A stretch of DNA of 64,000 nucleotides from positions 83,761-147,760 of the IMG/VR virus record IMGVR_UViG_3300035171_000016. One strand, 5' to 3'. This DNA is from a virus. Shown in pieces: positions 1-35,155 of the stretch; positions within the stretch are counted from its first letter, which is position 1; each line of letters opens with the position of its first letter. The translations under genes and the position numbers were made by a program. The notes under the pieces are model-generated. The model saw only the letters and a program-made list of their open reading frames with translations. It did no database searches and was not told the DNA's origin.

Positions 1-782
1 TTTTTATATCCTACTCTATCATATACTATGGATGTTATAATATCATTTTTATAGCCAGATGTCAACGCTAATTTTCTAATCCCGTCTTCAATAAAGGTCT
101 CACCTGTTATTAAATTAGTTAGTTTCCAATAAAAAGTATTACAATTTCTATTGTTTTTTAATTTTTTTGATATTTTTTCGTTTCTCTTATTTTTGTGAGG
201 TTCTACATTATTTTTTTTATCAAAAAATGCTTGATATTTTTTTAATATTAAACCTTTAAATCTTATAGAATTTACAATTGTACAATGTTTTATTCCTAAT
301 TCTTTGGCACAGTTATTTATTGATTCAAATTCCTTTAAAAAAAAGCCTTCTTTATTATATAGAAATACTTTTTTCTTATTCTTTGCGGATTTAATATGGT
401 TTTTTATACACTCCTTATTTTTTTTAAAGTTTTCTCCGCCATCTGTTAAATTGTAACCATACTCTTTTTCGTTTGATTTAAAAAATTTTATCCAATATGT
501 TTCTCGTTTTGCAAGATTTTTTAAAGATACTTCTTCTATTATAAGAAAATCAAATTTATCAAAACCATATTTTTTAATGGCTCTATGTATCGCCATCTGA
601 CCTCGCCCATTTATTCCATGATATAAATAAGACTTAAATCTTTTACTTAAATTGGTAGTTAAGCCTACATAAACCTTTCCATTTACTAGATTAGATAATT
701 TATAAATTAAACATTTTTTATAGTATATGCCATAGGTTTTATATCTTTTTCGTTCTAAATTTTTTATTTGTAATAATGTCAT
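1..782 (-). CDS. GIY-YIG homing endonuclease, 3' end runs off window (not in ORF track)
   Basis: Manual translation from ATG at 782 gives MTLLQ...CLIYKLSNLVNGKVYVGLTTNLSKRF...AIKKYGFDKFDF...RETYWIKFF...GYNLTDGG, followed by a NUMOD-like segment (KEFESINNCAKELG). The frame is open to position 1. Confidence 0.88.
   Translation of the reverse strand, partial: MTLLQIKNLERKRYKTYGIYYKKCLIYKLSNLVNGKVYVGLTTNLSKRFKSYLYHGINGRGQMAIHRAIKKYGFDKFDFLIIEEVSLKNLAKRETYWIKFFKSNEKEYGYNLTDGGENFKKNKECIKNHIKSAKNKKKVFLYNKEGFFLKEFESINNCAKELGIKHCTIVNSIRFKGLILKKYQAFFDKKNNVEPHKNKRNEKISKKLKNNRNCNTFYWKLTNLITGETFIEDGIRKLALTSGYKNDIITSIVYDRVGYK
37..65 (-). promoter_or_regulatory. sigma70-type promoter for a gene left of the window
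   Basis: TTGACA-17nt-TATTAT on the minus strand. Confidence 0.55.
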
Positions 783-829: not shown

Positions 830-1756
830 CTAATTTTTATACCATTCTAAGATTGAATCTTTTCCCTCGGCCATTAATTGCTCATTAAAGTCTTTATATG
901 GTTTTTTAGGAAGTTTAATTTTTATTTGTTTAGAATCAAAATATTTACTTAATCTTTTATATGCTTTATTTGCAGAATTAAGGCCAGCATTATCATTATT
1001 TGTAGCAATAATTATTTTAACATCTTGAATTTTAAGAAGATAATTAATTATCGGTAGGCCGCATTCAGTTCCAAACATACAGACAGAAGTTCTTATTCCA
1101 CAGGTCAAAAATGAAATAACATCTGATATTCCTTCAACCAAAATTATTTCCTTCTTTTCTTTTATGTCTTTATTATTTAAAAATAAAGGATAAACGGTAG
1201 ATTTTGAACCTCTTAAAATCCATTTCCACTCTTTATTATTTCCATTAATATCTCTTCCGGCCAACATTGTTATTTGGTTCTTAGAGTTCAATACAGGAAA
1301 AACATATTTGCCTTTTAAAATACCCTTGTCAGAAAAAACTCCGCCTCTGGTTTCTTGTAGAACTTCCTTGCTAATTCCTCTTGATTCCCAATAATCATAA
1401 ATAGGAACCAAGCTTTTAAAAATGTCGTCGGAAAAAATCTTAATTTGTTTGATTTTAGGACTAGGCGGCGGCAAAACTATATTATTTTTTTGTAAGTATT
1501 TTTCTAAATCTTCGGTAGATAATTGGTTAGTAACCAAAGAAATTAATCGTTTAATATCAAACTTGCTACCCTCTACGAAATCCAAACAAAGATTTTCTCC
1601 CCAATAAATAGCAACGCTTTTTGGGTCTTGTCCAGAACGCCATAATGCTGCCGTATTAAGATAGTTAGAACTTTCGCTAACAGGATAGCCATGAGTTAAT
1701 AGGATATTTTTAATAGCATCCTTATTTTTAAAGGAATATTCTCCAGAATTATACAT
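830..1756 (-). CDS. DNA primase (DnaG-like TOPRIM)
   Basis: YWESRGI, VFPVLN...LAGR, TOPRIM motif ILVEGISD, IIATNND, KDFNE. Confidence 0.85.
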   Translation of the reverse strand: MYNSGEYSFKNKDAIKNILLTHGYPVSESSNYLNTAALWRSGQDPKSVAIYWGENLCLDFVEGSKFDIKRLISLVTNQLSTEDLEKYLQKNNIVLPPPSPKIKQIKIFSDDIFKSLVPIYDYWESRGISKEVLQETRGGVFSDKGILKGKYVFPVLNSKNQITMLAGRDINGNNKEWKWILRGSKSTVYPLFLNNKDIKEKKEIILVEGISDVISFLTCGIRTSVCMFGTECGLPIINYLLKIQDVKIIIATNNDNAGLNSANKAYKRLSKYFDSKQIKIKLPKKPYKDFNEQLMAEGKDSILEWYKN

Positions 1757-1759
1757 ATT

Positions 1760-1948
1760 TTAAATTACTGCTAAAAGTCTAATAGGCCAATATAAAAGAT
1801 ATACTGGTAATAATATAGAATAAAATAATATTACAACTAATGAAGGATATTTAAAAGCAGTAGACATATCAATATAAACTGATTTCATATATCGTAAATC
1901 AGCCAAAAAGGTGATAAATCCTAAAGTTAAGTAAGCCTCTATTAGCAT
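1760..1948 (-). CDS. small membrane protein
   Basis: 62 aa with two hydrophobic segments; sigma70 promoter directly upstream. Confidence 0.6.
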   Translation of the reverse strand: MLIEAYLTLGFITFLADLRYMKSVYIDMSTAFKYPSLVVILFYSILLPVYLLYWPIRLLAVI

Positions 1949-1956
1949 AGGATATT

Positions 1957-1985
1957 AATATAAGAGTTTAACATTAAAAAGTCAA
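1957..1985 (-). promoter_or_regulatory. sigma70-type early promoter (primase operon)
   Basis: TTGACT-17nt-TATATT, 8 nt before ATG 1948. Confidence 0.65.
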
Positions 1986-1996
1986 GACTTTAATAT

Positions 1997-2187
1997 CTGC
2001 GTAGCAGTTTGAGATGAAAGACCTATCTTATTTATATAATTAATTGCGTAGCAAATATAATTAAAATTATAAGAATCATTTAAAATGGCCGCGATTTGAG
2101 CTTCTTATTCTTCTTTCAGAAGAACTGTCGTTCCGACAGAATTTAAGAGTAGTATAGTTTTATTTATCTATTACGAGCGATAGCGAG
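1997..2187. repeat. cluster of GC-rich mini-hairpins with GNA-type loops
   Basis: CTGC-GTA-GCAG (1997-2007), TTGC-GTA-GCAA (2044-2054), TTCTTCT-TTC-AGAAGAA (2108-2124), CTGTCG-TTC-CGACAG (2125-2139), and GC-GATA-GC near 2177, all in AT-rich non-coding DNA. Confidence 0.6.
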
Positions 2188-2215
2188 TTTATAATAAAAT
2201 ATTATACTCTTTCGT

Positions 2216-2541
2216 GTCAAGATACAAAAACTCCATATAATTTTAGGGATATGTAAAATATATCTTTAATATTAAGAACGTGCTAAGGTCGCCTATAAGC
2301 ACTTAATTTTACTATCTGTATTCGACTGTCGTGGCTTCTATTAAGAATTTGTATTCGCCACCCTATAATAAGACATCAATATAGTCTTTATTATAAAATA
2401 TACCTTAAATTAATAGTATTGGTTATCAGCTATTAATAGTATATAATCTTTTTGTTTGTTTAAAGTCTCCCCTTCTCTTTCCGCGAGCGGCGAGTTAAAT
2501 TTCCACCTTTCGGCGTTTCTTATGTTATGGGTCAAGACTCC
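2216..2541 (-). ncRNA. candidate structured non-coding RNA immediately downstream of the HNH gene
   Basis: Seven or more nested or serial stems. Several pair fully only on the minus strand through G-U pairs. One carries a GAAA tetraloop (CGCC-GAAA-GGUG, 2515-2504). Confidence 0.55.
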
Positions 2542-3006
2542 CTATTCTTTAATTTTAATAGAGTCAGATTTACTTATTTCGTTTTTTAGAAAATTTATAC
2601 GATTTAAAAGATTATTTTTCTTTTTTATATTTTTAGTACATACCTTATTAAGCTCTAAAAGAGCCGAAAGTCTTAATTTAGATAATTCTAACGGACTTAT
2701 TTTATTATTGTTACTAATTGATATAGTATCTTTTTTAAGTGTATTTATTTGTTTTTTGTTTAAAAATGGCTCGGAACCATATATAGAAATAGCTTTATGT
2801 GTAGATTTATGACATTTAAAACATAAAACAATTAAATCATCCATAGATGTTTTATACCAATTTTTATTATAAACTTTATGATGACAATTTAAGTTCTCGG
2901 TAGAGCGGCAATATTCGCATTTATTTCCAACCGAAAACTTCTTTTTTATCGAAAGGTTTTTCCAAAAACCGCTTTCTAAAAAAGCTCTGTAATTATTATT
3001 AGACAT
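2542..3006 (-). CDS. HNH endonuclease (Zn-binding) with basic C-terminal coil
   Basis: Y..FL.S..W motif, then CEYC...LNCHH.VY...DLIVLCFKCH..TH. Confidence 0.85.
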   Translation of the reverse strand: MSNNNYRAFLESGFWKNLSIKKKFSVGNKCEYCRSTENLNCHHKVYNKNWYKTSMDDLIVLCFKCHKSTHKAISIYGSEPFLNKKQINTLKKDTISISNNNKISPLELSKLRLSALLELNKVCTKNIKKKNNLLNRINFLKNEISKSDSIKIKE

Positions 3007-3020
3007 AAATTATTGCTATA

Positions 3021-3049
3021 ATATTAGAATCATTTAAACAAAAAGTCAA
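3021..3049 (-). promoter_or_regulatory. sigma70-type promoter for the HNH gene
   Basis: TTGACT-17nt-TAATAT. Confidence 0.6.
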
Positions 3050-3072
3050 CATCTTTTTAATTAATTTTATTC

Positions 3073-3101
3073 TTGACTTAATATCATATATAACATATAC
3101 T
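3073..3101 (+). promoter_or_regulatory. sigma70-type early promoter (leaderless)
   Basis: TTGACT-17nt-TATACT, 7 nt before ATG 3109; divergent from the 3021-3049 promoter. Confidence 0.7.
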
Positions 3102-3108
3102 TATATCA

Positions 3109-3300
3109 ATGCCTAAAATATTGACTATCTTAGTGGATAAAATAAATCCAGAGCCAACAATAGAAGAAATGAAGGCTTTTGGTGTAAGATTTGATAGAAT
3201 TAGCTGGAATAAGCTAACTGGTAATAAGGAATTTATGAAAGTTTTTCCTAAAAATCTAAAACTAGCAGAGAAATTAGTTAATAATATATTAAATAATTAA
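3109..3300 (+). CDS. hypothetical protein
   Basis: ORF directly after promoter. Confidence 0.6.
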   Translation: MPKILTILVDKINPEPTIEEMKAFGVRFDRISWNKLTGNKEFMKVFPKNLKLAEKLVNNILNN

Positions 3301-3322: not shown

Positions 3323-3775
3323 ATGTCAATAATTGAAGCTCAATCTATTTTAACAGGCTGGTTCGTAAAGCATGACTCGATTAATAATGAACAATTTATC
3401 TCTATCGCTCCGAAAAAGACATTACCGAATGAGGCTGAGGCCGCGTTTTCGTTTGCTCTACAAGAATTTGAAAATAAAGGAATTGTCGGAAAGTTTATTG
3501 GTGTCAACGACAAGGGTAACTCATTATTTACTTGGTGTCTTAGGAGGCCCTTAATTCTCAATAGCCAAACATTAGTAATTAATGGACAAACGGCCCTATC
3601 AATAAGTAATTGTGTTAATTCATTTTACGAATCAATGGGTGATAAAGAAAATTTCTGCAATCCTTTGGAAATATGTCAAAACGATATAGATATTTTACTA
3701 GAAATAACCTCGCTTTTATCTGAACAAAATTTAGAAAAAAATAATAATAAAGAAAATATTAAAACTAATAATTAA
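3323..3775 (+). CDS. hypothetical protein
   Basis: 150-aa ORF in operon. Confidence 0.65.
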   Translation: MSIIEAQSILTGWFVKHDSINNEQFISIAPKKTLPNEAEAAFSFALQEFENKGIVGKFIGVNDKGNSLFTWCLRRPLILNSQTLVINGQTALSISNCVNSFYESMGDKENFCNPLEICQNDIDILLEITSLLSEQNLEKNNNKENIKTNN

Positions 3776-33061: not shown

Positions 33062-35155
33062 ATGAAAAAATTAGCCGAATTTGCAAGAGAAAATAAATTA
33101 AACTATAAGAACCTATGGCGAGAAGTTAAAAATGGCACGGCCTCTATTAAAACCACAACTAAAAATGGAAGAATTTATGTACAGGAAGAGGCCACGGCCT
33201 CTAAGTTGGCCAAATTTGTAGATAATGAAGGCAAATTCTATACTCCAGTTTTGTCCGGTAAGGATACTATTGTCGCGTCATCAACTCGCAGAAACGCTGC
33301 CGCTACTAGTACTCCAACTGATGAATATTATAATATTTCTAATGGTTTAACTCCATTTAATAATGCGTCTCAAAGAACTGGTGGAGACGGCGGTGGTATG
33401 TTTCCGGTTGCAGAGGCTATTCTTTTAACTCAAAAGGCTTATTATAATTTTTCAGTTTTTAGAAATATCATAGACTTTATGACAGAGTTTTCATGCTCTA
33501 AGATATTCTTACAAGGCGGCAATGCAAAAGCTCGTAATTTCTTTGAAAATTTCTTTGATTCTATCAATATTAATGCTCTACAAGACAAATTTTTTAGAGA
33601 AATGTATAGGTCAGGGAATTGTCTAGTATATCGTTTTCAGGTAAAAGCAAAACAAGAAGATATAGATAGATTAAATAAAATCTACGGAGCAACAGCCGCC
33701 GCTCTAACTCTTCCGTCTAAATATATACTAATTAATCCATATGATATTGGCGTTCAATCTAATATAGTTTTCGGCTCCAATGTAATTTTCTTTAAAAGAC
33801 TTAATGGTTATGAAGTAAATCGTTTAAGAGCTTCCGAAACCCCAGAAGAAAAGCAGTTTTTTGATAGTCTACCAGAAGTAACACAAAAACAAATTAAGGC
33901 CGGTTCTGGAACAGTATTAATTCCGCTAGACCCGGAAAGATTATATGGAGTTTTCTTTAAAAAGAGTGACTACGAATCTATGGCAATTCCAATGGGTTAT
34001 CCAGTTCTAAAGGATATTGAATGGAAGGCCGAAATGAAGAGAGTTGACATGGCTGTAGCTAGAACAATGCAACAAGTTGTTTTATTGGTAAACATGGGAT
34101 ACGAATCTAAAGATGGAACTTATATGTTTGATGGTAAGGCGGCAGAATCAATGCAAACATTATTTGCTAGCGAATCAGTAGGTAAAGTACTAGTTGCCGA
34201 CTTTACTACCAAATTAACATGGGCTATTCCAGCAATCGGAGACTTTCTTGACCCTAAGAAATATGAAATAGTTAACCAAGATATTAAAGAAGGATTAAAT
34301 TATATATTAACCGGAGGCGATTCTAAGTTTGCTAATCAATTTATATCTGTAAAGCTTTTCGTAGAAAGACTTAAAAGCGGAAGAGAAATGTTTTTGAATG
34401 AATTTCTTATTCCAGAAATGAAAAAAATATCTGAAAATATGGGTTTTAAATCTTGCCCTACTCCAAAATTTGAAGATATTGATTTAAGAGACGAGGCAGA
34501 ATGGGAAAGAATTGTAACTCAATTAGGTTCTTTAGGTATACTTACTCCCCAAGAAACTTTAGAGGCTATGAATTCCGGTAGACTTCCTACCGCCGAAGAA
34601 TCTATAGAACATCAAAACGAATATCGAGCGCAAAGAGACAAGGGTTTATACGAACCACTAGTAGGCGGCCCTTATGATACGGCCAAGCTAGCTAAATTAA
34701 CGGCTGCTCAAAAACCAGCAGCGCAAACAAATCCATCAGATTTAGGTGGTCGCCCGGGAAATGTAAAAACCAAACAAACTACTAAAAAAGTAGGTATTTC
34801 TAGAGGCTCTATACAAGAAGAGATGGCTATTCAAAGTTTATATTCTTTATCTAAAATTAAAGATAATTTAATATTAGCTGCCAACCTTAAAGAAAAAGTA
34901 AAGCAATACTATGCAAAAGCAAAAAATATTAAAAAATTTAATGACCAACAAATGTTCATTATTAATGAAATAAGCGAATTAATTATAGCTGACTGCAAAC
35001 CAAATGAATGGGAACTTAATATCGAGAAATATATTAAAGAGCCAATCGCCTCTAACGAAAAGAATATTAAGGAAATAGAAGAAATAGCTTTAGAACATTC
35101 TCTACCTCATTCTTTAGCCGCTATTTTACTTAATAGTAAATTAGAAAAAATCTAA
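33062..35155 (+). CDS. portal protein with N-terminal HTH
   Basis: AYY..SVFRNIID.M.EF, FFREMYRSGN..VY, portal-like size and helical pattern; N-terminal MKKLAEFARENKLNYKNLWR. Confidence 0.7.
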   Translation: MKKLAEFARENKLNYKNLWREVKNGTASIKTTTKNGRIYVQEEATASKLAKFVDNEGKFYTPVLSGKDTIVASSTRRNAAATSTPTDEYYNISNGLTPFNNASQRTGGDGGGMFPVAEAILLTQKAYYNFSVFRNIIDFMTEFSCSKIFLQGGNAKARNFFENFFDSININALQDKFFREMYRSGNCLVYRFQVKAKQEDIDRLNKIYGATAAALTLPSKYILINPYDIGVQSNIVFGSNVIFFKRLNGYEVNRLRASETPEEKQFFDSLPEVTQKQIKAGSGTVLIPLDPERLYGVFFKKSDYESMAIPMGYPVLKDIEWKAEMKRVDMAVARTMQQVVLLVNMGYESKDGTYMFDGKAAESMQTLFASESVGKVLVADFTTKLTWAIPAIGDFLDPKKYEIVNQDIKEGLNYILTGGDSKFANQFISVKLFVERLKSGREMFLNEFLIPEMKKISENMGFKSCPTPKFEDIDLRDEAEWERIVTQLGSLGILTPQETLEAMNSGRLPTAEESIEHQNEYRAQRDKGLYEPLVGGPYDTAKLAKLTAAQKPAAQTNPSDLGGRPGNVKTKQTTKKVGISRGSIQEEMAIQSLYSLSKIKDNLILAANLKEKVKQYYAKAKNIKKFNDQQMFIINEISELIIADCKPNEWELNIEKYIKEPIASNEKNIKEIEEIALEHSLPHSLAAILLNSKLEKI

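What the first reader, a model, noticed from the sequence alone, without database searches (positions are those of the whole stretch)
2216..3049. HNH nuclease gene followed directly by a ~330-nt highly structured, strand-specific candidate RNA
Seen: a sigma70 promoter (3049-3021) precedes a 154-aa HNH gene, and structure starts at the first base after its stop. The outer stem is GGAGUCU/AGACUUU (2541-2535/2468-2462). It encloses CCC/GGG, CGCC-GAAA-GGUG and CCGC-UC-GCGG. Further hairpins sit at 2398-2444, 2364-2395, 2331-2361 and 2272-2306. A long-range stem GUCGAAUACAGA/UUUGUAUCUUGAC (2326-2315/2228-2216) closes a multibranch domain. CGAAUACARAU occurs twice. Three stems have A-C mismatches on + but G-U pairs on -, so the fold favours an RNA on the HNH strand. 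I do not recognise it as tRNA, a group I intron or a known riboswitch. Inference: a co-transcribed nuclease-RNA pair (analogous to HEARO/omega RNA systems but 3' of the ORF), or a novel phage ncRNA or replication-primer RNA at the divergence point beside primase.
Basis: partly seen in the sequence, partly recalled or inferred. Interest (0 to 1): 0.8.

Follow-up and report, generated by a model that had tools for sequence, protein, structure and literature searches.

The report
New phage RNA, invaded by HNH
The stretch after the HNH gene is a real folded non-coding RNA of about 330 nt that matches no catalogued RNA family. It belongs to the early promoter-to-primase slot of this uncultured phage group, not to the HNH nuclease, which is a mobile gene that landed in front of it.

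Summary
Window 2541-2216 (minus strand) folds into 13 helices. These are kept in the only two homologues I could find (L015, L009): 93% of cells are paired, 37 of 70 pairs changed on both sides, and slid controls give 38-48% paired. There are 15 G-U cells against 1 A-C, so the RNA lies on the primase/HNH strand. Folding energy alone is not significant on either strand.

The nuclease-RNA pair reading fails. L015 has the same RNA directly behind the same early promoter with no HNH gene. The 154-aa protein is an ordinary phage HNH endonuclease. L176 carries an unrelated HNH-type gene in the same slot.

No Rfam family, tRNA or tmRNA matches in the window or in ten related loci. All eleven related phage loci hold a G+C-rich island in this slot, between a sigma-70-type early promoter and the primase's own promoter, but their sequences fall into several non-alignable classes.

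Function is unknown. My best guess (about 0.3) is an early transcript acting at a replication-control or origin region. This scan earlier noted analogous RNAs in T5-like phages; my model finds no match in T5.

The parts
3021..3049 (-). Early sigma-70-type promoter (TTGACT-17-TAATAT). In relatives without HNH it directly drives the RNA.
   Evidence: Equivalent promoters lie at L015 3362-3390 and L009 359-387. The promoter region aligns with L010 at 76% identity.
2542..3006 (-). 154-aa free-standing HNH endonuclease gene (homing-endonuclease type), inserted in the short leader between the promoter and the RNA.
   Evidence: Pfam HNH, E 9e-6. PHROG HNH endonuclease families. Only one homologue in 5.8 billion proteins, namely L009 401-859 at 51% identity. 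Absent from L015, L010, L011, L012, L014, L177 and L178.
2462..2541 (-). Domain 1 of the RNA. It comprises outer helix P1 (2541-2535/2468-2462), P1a (2531-2529/2471-2469), the GAAA-tetraloop hairpin P1b (2515-2504) and hairpin P1c/d (2494-2475). It is a G+C island of about 50% in a 31% genome.
   Evidence: P1 has 4 of 7 pairs changed on both sides.
2398..2444 (-). P2 (2444-2439/2403-2398) enclosing P2a (2437-2430/2416-2409). The 13-nt loop contains a conserved GAUA.
   Evidence: helices 6 and 7: 9 of 14 pairs changed on both sides, 94-96% paired.
2364..2395 (-). P3 hairpin.
   Evidence: helix 8: 7 of 11 pairs changed on both sides. Fold z -3.0.
2331..2361 (-). P4 hairpin (GUGGC/GCCAC), followed by a conserved CGACAGU.
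   Evidence: helix 9: 100% paired, 3 of 5 pairs changed on both sides.
2253..2312 (-). Three-way junction. P8 (2312-2306/2259-2253) closes P5 (2302-2298/2284-2280, loop with a conserved ACC) and P6 (2277-2274/2266-2263, 7-nt loop AAYMUUA).
   Evidence: helices 10-12: all 100% paired, 11 of 16 pairs changed on both sides. P8 was found by constrained folding of all three sequences.
2216..2252 (-). 3' part: a small P7 hairpin (2252-2249/2238-2235, weakly supported) and the conserved tail UGGAGU...GUAUCUUGAC. Its pairing partner, if any, is unknown.
   Evidence: helix 13: 75% paired. The tail motif recurs in the other RNA classes. It overlaps a promoter-like site, 2220-2191.
1957..1985 (-). The primase operon's own promoter (TTGACT-17-TATATT). 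It marks the far end of the non-coding slot.
   Evidence: CTTGACTTT...TATAAT is conserved in the alignment of relatives. See also L015 3941-3969 and L009 1376-1404.

Best explanation
Window 2541-2216 (minus strand) is a gene for a structured non-coding RNA of about 330 nt. It has a three-way-junction 5' domain, three hairpin modules and a second three-way junction.

The RNA sits in a slot found in a small clade of uncultured A+T-rich phages (several sample names suggest lakes). The slot lies between a strong host-type (sigma-70-like) early promoter, at the genome's main point of divergent transcription, and the primase operon's own promoter.

The HNH gene is a free-standing homing-type endonuclease gene. 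It inserted into the roughly 30-40-nt leader between that promoter and the RNA. It therefore borrows the early promoter and, in this genome, is co-transcribed with the RNA. It is not the RNA's partner.

Shown here: the fold, its conservation, its strand, its independence from HNH, the promoter architecture, and the lack of any Rfam match. Inferred: the function. My preferred reading (about 0.3) is an early transcript that acts in cis at the replication-control or origin region beside primase, by transcriptional activation or as a pre-primer in the manner of ColE1 RNA II or the T4 origin transcripts. The confidence below is for the shown part together with 'not an HNH guide'.
For: - Homologues: a covariance model built from the window sequence alone finds L015 3422-3761 (126 bits, E 1.6e-39) and L009 866-1156 (58 bits, E 3e-17).
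- Covariation on the three-sequence alignment: 92.9% of cells paired, 37 of 70 pairs changed on both sides, 0 of 500 shuffles as high. Slid controls give 38-48% paired and 2-10 such pairs.
- An unfitted MAFFT plus RNAalifold run already gave 18 of 50 pairs with compensatory change.
- Strand: 15 G-U cells against 1 A-C.
- Not coding: a 1-nt indel shifts the only 41-aa ORF between the window and L015. The longest complete ORFs (either strand) are 41, 17 and 45 aa.
- No Rfam, tRNA or tmRNA match.
- L015 has promoter then RNA with no HNH; the window and L009 have promoter, HNH, then RNA.
- L176 has another HNH/EndoVII-like ORF in the same slot.
- G+C islands of 44-54% lie in the same slot in all 11 loci, against 27-34% locus G+C.
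- A second RNA class (L010, L179, L176) has its own covarying fold.
- The genome-wide A-T skew minimum is at window 2961, at the main strand switch.
Against: - Only three members of this RNA class could be collected. Two of the alignments were fitted to the proposed structure, which inflates pair counts.
- Whole-region folding energy is not significant.
- No clear intrinsic terminator follows the RNA. It may simply be the 5' part of a long early mRNA.
- The skew minimum coincides with the switch in gene direction, so it is not independent evidence of an origin.
- Two of three class members do carry the HNH gene, so a looser HNH link (for example, the RNA gene as the homing target) is not excluded.
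Confidence: 0.8

Rival explanations
1. Cis-acting leader of the leftward early operon. The folded RNA modifies or protects the transcript that reads on into primase. It could work by processive antitermination in the manner of HK022 put or EAR RNAs, or as a stabilising 5' structure.
For: It lies directly behind an early promoter. No convincing terminator separates it from primase; the only terminator-like site is the weak 2139-2125, and none is found in L009. Small GNRA- and triloop hairpins follow it.
Against: Primase has its own well-conserved promoter between the RNA and the gene. At about 330 nt the RNA is several times larger than known antiterminator RNAs (own knowledge). The RNA differs in class between phages whose primases are 55-70% identical.
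Confidence: 0.25
2. Trans-acting early RNA for host takeover or counter-defence (a decoy or sponge), made first after infection.
For: Strong host-type promoter. Fast turnover of sequence classes among close relatives, as expected in an arms race. Independent folding modules.
Against: No similarity to any host RNA or known decoy. No defined 3' end. Its fixed position beside replication genes is not explained.
Confidence: 0.2
3. The conserved hairpins act in single-stranded DNA (origin or priming signals), not in RNA.
For: The neighbouring 2215-1990 stretch is full of GNA- and triloop mini-hairpins beside primase. The locus is at the strand switch and A-T skew minimum.
Against: 15 G-U cells against 1 A-C, a GAAA tetraloop, and long irregular multi-helix junctions are typical of RNA and costly in DNA. 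A strong promoter points into the element in every relative examined.
Confidence: 0.07
4. Functional HNH-RNA pair (RNA-guided or RNA-assisted nuclease, omega-RNA-like).
For: The RNA starts at the base after the HNH stop codon and is probably co-transcribed. Two of three class members carry the HNH gene.
Against: L015 has the same RNA without HNH. The protein is 154 aa, with an HNH domain only. No HEARO match. An unrelated HNH gene sits in the same slot next to a different RNA class in L176.
Confidence: 0.03
5. Group I (or II) intron, or a remnant of one, carrying the HNH gene as its homing endonuclease.
For: An HNH ORF next to a large folded RNA in a phage is the classic intron picture. Alleles with and without the ORF both exist.
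Against: There is no host gene or exons: a promoter and a divergent gene lie upstream and non-coding DNA lies downstream. No Intron_gpI or group II match even at E 10, nor in relatives at E up to 1. The ORF lies outside the fold, not in a loop.
Confidence: 0.02

Closest known systems
Large structured RNAs upstream of the replication helicase/primase gene of T5-like phages
   Same: A promoter-driven, ORF-free stretch of several hundred nt directly upstream of a replication-initiation gene in a virulent phage. The fold is kept by compensatory changes, and there is no Rfam match.
   Different: A different phage group. My model R2 finds no match in phage T5. This RNA is shorter (about 330 nt against 430-600 nt), and a separate promoter lies between it and primase.
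ColE1 RNA II pre-primer and phage T4 oriF/oriG origin transcripts (own knowledge)
   Same: A promoter-driven transcript running into a replication-control region, where (for RNA II) the RNA's own fold matters.
   Different: No origin, RNase H site or R-loop has been shown here. There is no sequence or Rfam similarity.
HEARO / IscB omega RNA
   Same: A structured RNA next to an HNH-containing nuclease gene.
   Different: The omega RNA lies upstream of a roughly 400-500-aa RuvC+HNH protein and is obligatory for it (own knowledge). Here the protein is 154 aa with HNH only, the RNA is 3' of it, the RNA also occurs without it, and there is no HEARO match.
Free-standing HNH homing endonuclease genes of T4-like and other phages
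   Same: A small HNH ORF, sporadic among close relatives, sitting in an intergenic slot beside conserved sequence, with other endonuclease genes nearby: GIY-YIG at 3-782, and LAGLIDADG and HNH_3 genes in relatives.
   Different: Cleavage activity and target site are untested.
GOLLD / ROOL and other 'ornate' large phage-associated RNAs
   Same: Large, multi-junction non-coding RNAs of unknown function encoded by phages.
   Different: No match to their Rfam models. This RNA is smaller and has a very narrow distribution.

Membership tests
HEARO / IscB omega RNA system | RNA matches the HEARO covariance model | tested here: not met
   No Rfam match at gathering score over the window, nor at E up to 10 over 1700-3200.
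HEARO / IscB omega RNA system | Nuclease of about 400-500 aa with a RuvC domain interrupted by HNH | tested here: not met
   154 aa. The only Pfam match is HNH at residues 30-71. PHROG matches are to stand-alone HNH endonucleases.
HEARO / IscB omega RNA system | RNA and nuclease gene always occur together | tested here: not met
   L015 has the RNA (E 1.6e-39) with no HNH gene between the promoter and the RNA.
Group I intron with homing endonuclease ORF | Match to the group I core (P3-P9, G-binding site) | tested here: not met
   No Intron_gpI match at E up to 10, and none in ten relatives at E up to 1. The G-binding site was not examined by hand.
Group I intron with homing endonuclease ORF | Interrupts a host gene, with exons on both sides | tested here: not met
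   A promoter and a divergent gene lie upstream. About 230 nt of non-coding DNA and another promoter lie downstream.
Free-standing HNH homing endonuclease gene | HNH catalytic motif | tested here: met
   Pfam PF01844, 26.1 bits (cut-off 21.4). The CxxC...HH...CxxCH pattern is conserved with L009.
Free-standing HNH homing endonuclease gene | Present or absent at the same site among close relatives | tested here: met
   Present in the window, L009 and the P0004 contigs. Absent in L010, L011, L012, L014, L015, L177 and L178. A different HNH-type ORF is present in L176.
Free-standing HNH homing endonuclease gene | Cleaves the ORF-less allele near the insertion site | not testable with these tools
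   Needs a cleavage assay on L015-type leader DNA.
Structured non-coding RNA (generic criteria) | Helices kept by compensatory substitutions in homologues | tested here: met
   37 of 70 pairs changed on both sides and 92.9% paired, against 38-48% in slid controls. An unfitted alignment gave 18 of 50. There are only three sequences.
Structured non-coding RNA (generic criteria) | A transcript exists with defined ends | not testable with these tools
Promoters are predicted only.
RNA-primed origin (ColE1 RNA II / T4 ori type) | Transcript forms a persistent hybrid and primes DNA synthesis at a mapped origin | not testable with these tools
   Only circumstantial evidence: the locus is next to primase, at the strand switch and at the A-T skew minimum.
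T5-like large leader RNA (scan notes) | Homology to the T5 RNA | tested here: not met
   R2 finds no match in AY543070 at E up to 1. R2 is a single-sequence model, so its reach is limited.

The most novel reading that the evidence does not exclude
The early promoter-to-primase slot of this phage clade holds a fast-diversifying set of structured RNAs. These would be origin-specifying pre-primer or activator RNAs, functionally like ColE1 RNA II, that co-evolve with each phage's replication machinery. The conserved RNA gene would also be the homing target that repeatedly attracts HNH endonuclease genes. Together with the T5-like cases, this would make 'structured RNA in front of the replication initiator' a general, undescribed feature of virulent phages.
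Probability: 0.2. Interest if true: 0.75.

Novelty: new variant of a known kind. Interest (0 to 1): 0.5.

Why it matters
This adds a well-supported but narrowly distributed new structured RNA to the short list of large phage non-coding RNAs. It shows the RNA is tied to the replication-gene control region rather than to the adjacent nuclease. If RNAs in this slot prove to act in replication initiation, and if the analogous T5-like RNAs do the same, they would point to an RNA component of phage origin function that current annotation misses. The locus is also a clean natural example of homing endonuclease genes using a non-coding RNA's promoter-proximal leader as a landing site.

Tried and rejected
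- Rfam at gathering score and at permissive E-values, on the window and on ten relatives: nothing relevant.
- ARAGORN for tRNA and tmRNA: none.
- Thermodynamic test: the whole region is not better than shuffles on either strand. Single hairpins give z -1.2 to -3.0.
- More members of the RNA class were sought in several ways, all without success:
  - BLASTN and tBLASTN against 50,697 phage records: no match.
  - Primase-guided loci from IMG/VR and JGI metagenomes: 160 loci at 43% identity or less, with no BLASTN or model match.
  - Four DNA-pattern scans: chance matches only.
Three places returned no DNA.
- A three-sequence model (R3) could not be built; calibration time exceeded the limit.
- Ideas dropped after inspection:
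  - T-box-like UGGN motif: no Rfam match, and the alignment is inconsistent.
  - tmRNA-like 5' end in L011: ARAGORN negative.
  - An 11-nt GAAA-tetraloop receptor in P7: the geometry is implausible.
  - Pairing of the tail with J1/2 or J4/5: not conserved.
  - Weak model hits at window 33418-33781: they lie inside a 697-aa ORF and are noise.
  - The 41-aa ORF 2410-2535: frame-shifted in L015.

Full report
**What is there.** The window comes from a 147,760-bp IMG/VR virus record that is 95% complete and 31% G+C. On the minus strand, the order is:
- a sigma-70-type promoter at 3049-3021;
- a 154-aa HNH ORF at 3006-2542;
- about 590 nt without a credible ORF;
- a second promoter at 1985-1957;
- a 62-aa ORF, then a Toprim primase at 1756-830.

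Genes upstream of 3109 run the other way. The first helix starts at 2541, the base after the HNH stop codon.

**Energy alone does not show structure.** The 326-nt stretch folds at -62.6 kcal/mol on the minus strand (z -1.66; 6 of 100 shuffles as good) and -63.5 on the plus strand (z -2.45). Single hairpins give z between -1.2 and -3.0. The question had to be decided by comparison with relatives.

**Relatives.**
- No phage record matches the DNA or the primase.
- The primase has 13 relatives at 52-70% identity in metagenome assemblies. I fetched ten loci.
- All ten show the same layout: a small divergent gene, then 480-900 nt of non-coding DNA, then primase. In the alignment most carry a CTTGACTTT...TATAAT promoter just before primase.
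- An HNH gene sits in front of the non-coding stretch only in L009 and in the P0004 contigs, for which no DNA was available.
- L176 has an unrelated HNH/EndoVII-like ORF at that place.
- L015, L010, L011, L012, L014, L177 and L178 have no such gene.

**The RNA.** L015 (no HNH) and L009 (with HNH) align with the window over about 330 nt.
- An unfitted MAFFT plus RNAalifold run already showed 18 of 50 predicted pairs with compensatory change.
- I then wrote a structure for the window sequence alone and built a single-sequence covariance model. The model found L015 at 126 bits and L009 at 58 bits. It found nothing else in the close loci, 160 distant primase loci, 40 pattern-scan loci, phage T5, or elsewhere in the own genome.
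- On the resulting three-sequence alignment, 92.9% of cells are paired and 37 of 70 pairs changed on both sides. None of 500 shuffles reaches this. Sliding the partners by 1-3 columns gives 38-48% paired and 2-10 such pairs.
- Helices P2, P3, P4, P5, P6 and P8 carry most of the compensatory changes.
- G-U cells outnumber A-C cells 15 to 1, so the fold belongs to the primase/HNH strand.
- Caveats: there are only three sequences, and the alignment was fitted to the structure.

- The long-range stem 2326-2315/2228-2216 is strong only in this genome: duplex -10.7 kcal/mol, against -4.0 and -4.1 in the homologues.
- Constrained folding of all three sequences instead finds GUAAAAU/AUUUUAC (2312-2306/2259-2253). 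This helix closes P5 and P6 into a three-way junction. It is 100% paired, with three compensatory pairs.
- The repeated CGAAUACARAU is real but is not conserved as such.

**Not coding, not a known RNA.**
- The only ORF of note (41 aa, 2535-2410) is frame-shifted by a 1-nt indel in L015.
- Rfam 15 gives nothing at gathering score. At E up to 10 over this region, and E up to 1 over ten related loci, it returns only weak chance-level hits (rli60, a snoRNA and mir-1302), none on the RNA. ARAGORN finds no tRNA or tmRNA.
- A survey of more than ten thousand candidate viral RNAs (PMC10690425) does not mention primase-associated motifs.

**HNH is a passenger.**
- In L015 the promoter (3362-3390) is followed after about 35 nt by P1.
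- In the window and in L009 the HNH ORF fills exactly this leader.
- The two HNH proteins are 51% identical and are each other's only relatives in the 5.8-billion-protein search. They match ordinary phage HNH endonuclease families.
- The locus is rich in other homing-type genes: GIY-YIG at 3-782, and LAGLIDADG, HNH_3 and GIY-YIG in relatives.
- A free-standing homing endonuclease gene that borrows the RNA's early promoter is the economical reading. An omega-RNA-like pair is not supported.

**A slot, not one family.**
- Every one of the eleven loci has a G+C island (44-54% in 80 nt, against 27-34% overall) at the same place.
- The sequences fall into classes that neither BLASTN nor the model connects.
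- L010, L179 and L176 form a second class with its own fold: 92.2% paired and 11 of 43 compensatory pairs. That structure was derived from the same alignment.
- By eye, the classes share some features: a P1 stem followed by UU(A)GAC, a hairpin with a GACC-containing loop, and a 3' motif GUGUAUCUUGAMAC. I could not establish homology between them.

**Function.** This part is inferred.
- For an origin-linked role: the RNA is the first thing made from a strong host-type promoter. It lies at the main switch of gene direction and at the genome-wide A-T skew minimum (window 2961). It sits next to primase and is followed by conserved mini-hairpins.
- Against over-reading this: the skew minimum may simply reflect gene orientation.
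- My preferred reading (about 0.3) is an early transcript acting in cis at a replication-control or origin region.
- The main rivals are a leader or antitermination role (0.25) and a trans-acting takeover or counter-defence RNA (0.2).
- Earlier notes of this scan describe analogous large RNAs upstream of the T5-family helicase gene. My model finds no homology to T5.

**Verdict.** The headline interpretation (a nuclease-RNA pair) is rejected. Interest is moderate because only three members are known and the function is open.

Noticed in passing
window 1997-2007 (minus strand): A mini-hairpin CUGC-UAC-GCAG lies about 10 nt upstream of the -35 of the primase promoter. It covaries among relatives: UCGC/GCGA in L179 and L009, CCGC/GCGG in L178, UCGCC/GGCGA in L176, and CUGC-UAU-GCAG in L010.
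   Followed up: partly
window 2108-2139 (minus strand): Two adjacent hairpins, CUGUCG-GAA-CGACAG and UUCUUCU-GAAA-GAAGAA. L010 has the first one identical and the second with compensatory changes (UCUAAUCU-GAAA-GAUUAGA). L012 has GUCUUCU-GAAA-GAAGAAC. They could be boxB-like protein sites, a weak terminator or origin signals.
   Followed up: partly
window 2175-2187 (plus strand): The 13-mer GAGCGATAGCGAG is unique in the genome. It occurs in the opposite orientation relative to primase in L009, and variants (CGCGATAGCGG, CGCGATTAGCGG) occur in L178 and L179. It is a candidate protein-binding site in the origin-like stretch.
   Followed up: partly
L010 5490-5790, L179 140-440, L176 2420-2700: A second, non-alignable class of structured RNA lies in the same slot. 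It has a conserved GGGUGAAGCGACAGGACUGAAAC and its own covarying helices. G-C to G-U changes place it on the primase strand.
   Followed up: partly
L011 3600-3800: A third kind of element lies in the same slot. It ends in a clear intrinsic terminator (CCACUAUCUAAAGUGG followed by CCUUUUUU) and begins with a tmRNA-like GGGGCUGAUUU. ARAGORN does not call a tmRNA.
   Followed up: partly
window 2254-2270 and 2394-2410: A 17-nt internal direct repeat at 88% identity links the 3' sides of the P2 and P6/P8 modules. The two modules also resemble each other within L015 and within L009, which suggests either an internal duplication or two sites for one binding partner.
   Followed up: no
window 1760-1948 (minus strand): A 62-aa hydrophobic ORF lies between the primase promoter and primase. 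It is present only in this genome among the eleven loci and has no Pfam or PHROG match.
   Followed up: partly
window 3-782 (minus strand), and relatives: Homing-type endonuclease genes cluster around primase: GIY-YIG/NUMOD1 here and in L015, LAGLIDADG in L010 and L177, HNH_3 in L012, and HNH in the P0002 contig.
   Followed up: partly
window 2191-2220 (minus strand): The best-scoring sigma-70-like site of the region (TTGACA-18-TATTAT, 11 of 12) overlaps the conserved 3' tail of the RNA. L178 has the same UUGUAUAUUGACACGAAA. It is unclear whether the conservation is for a promoter or for the RNA.
   Followed up: partly
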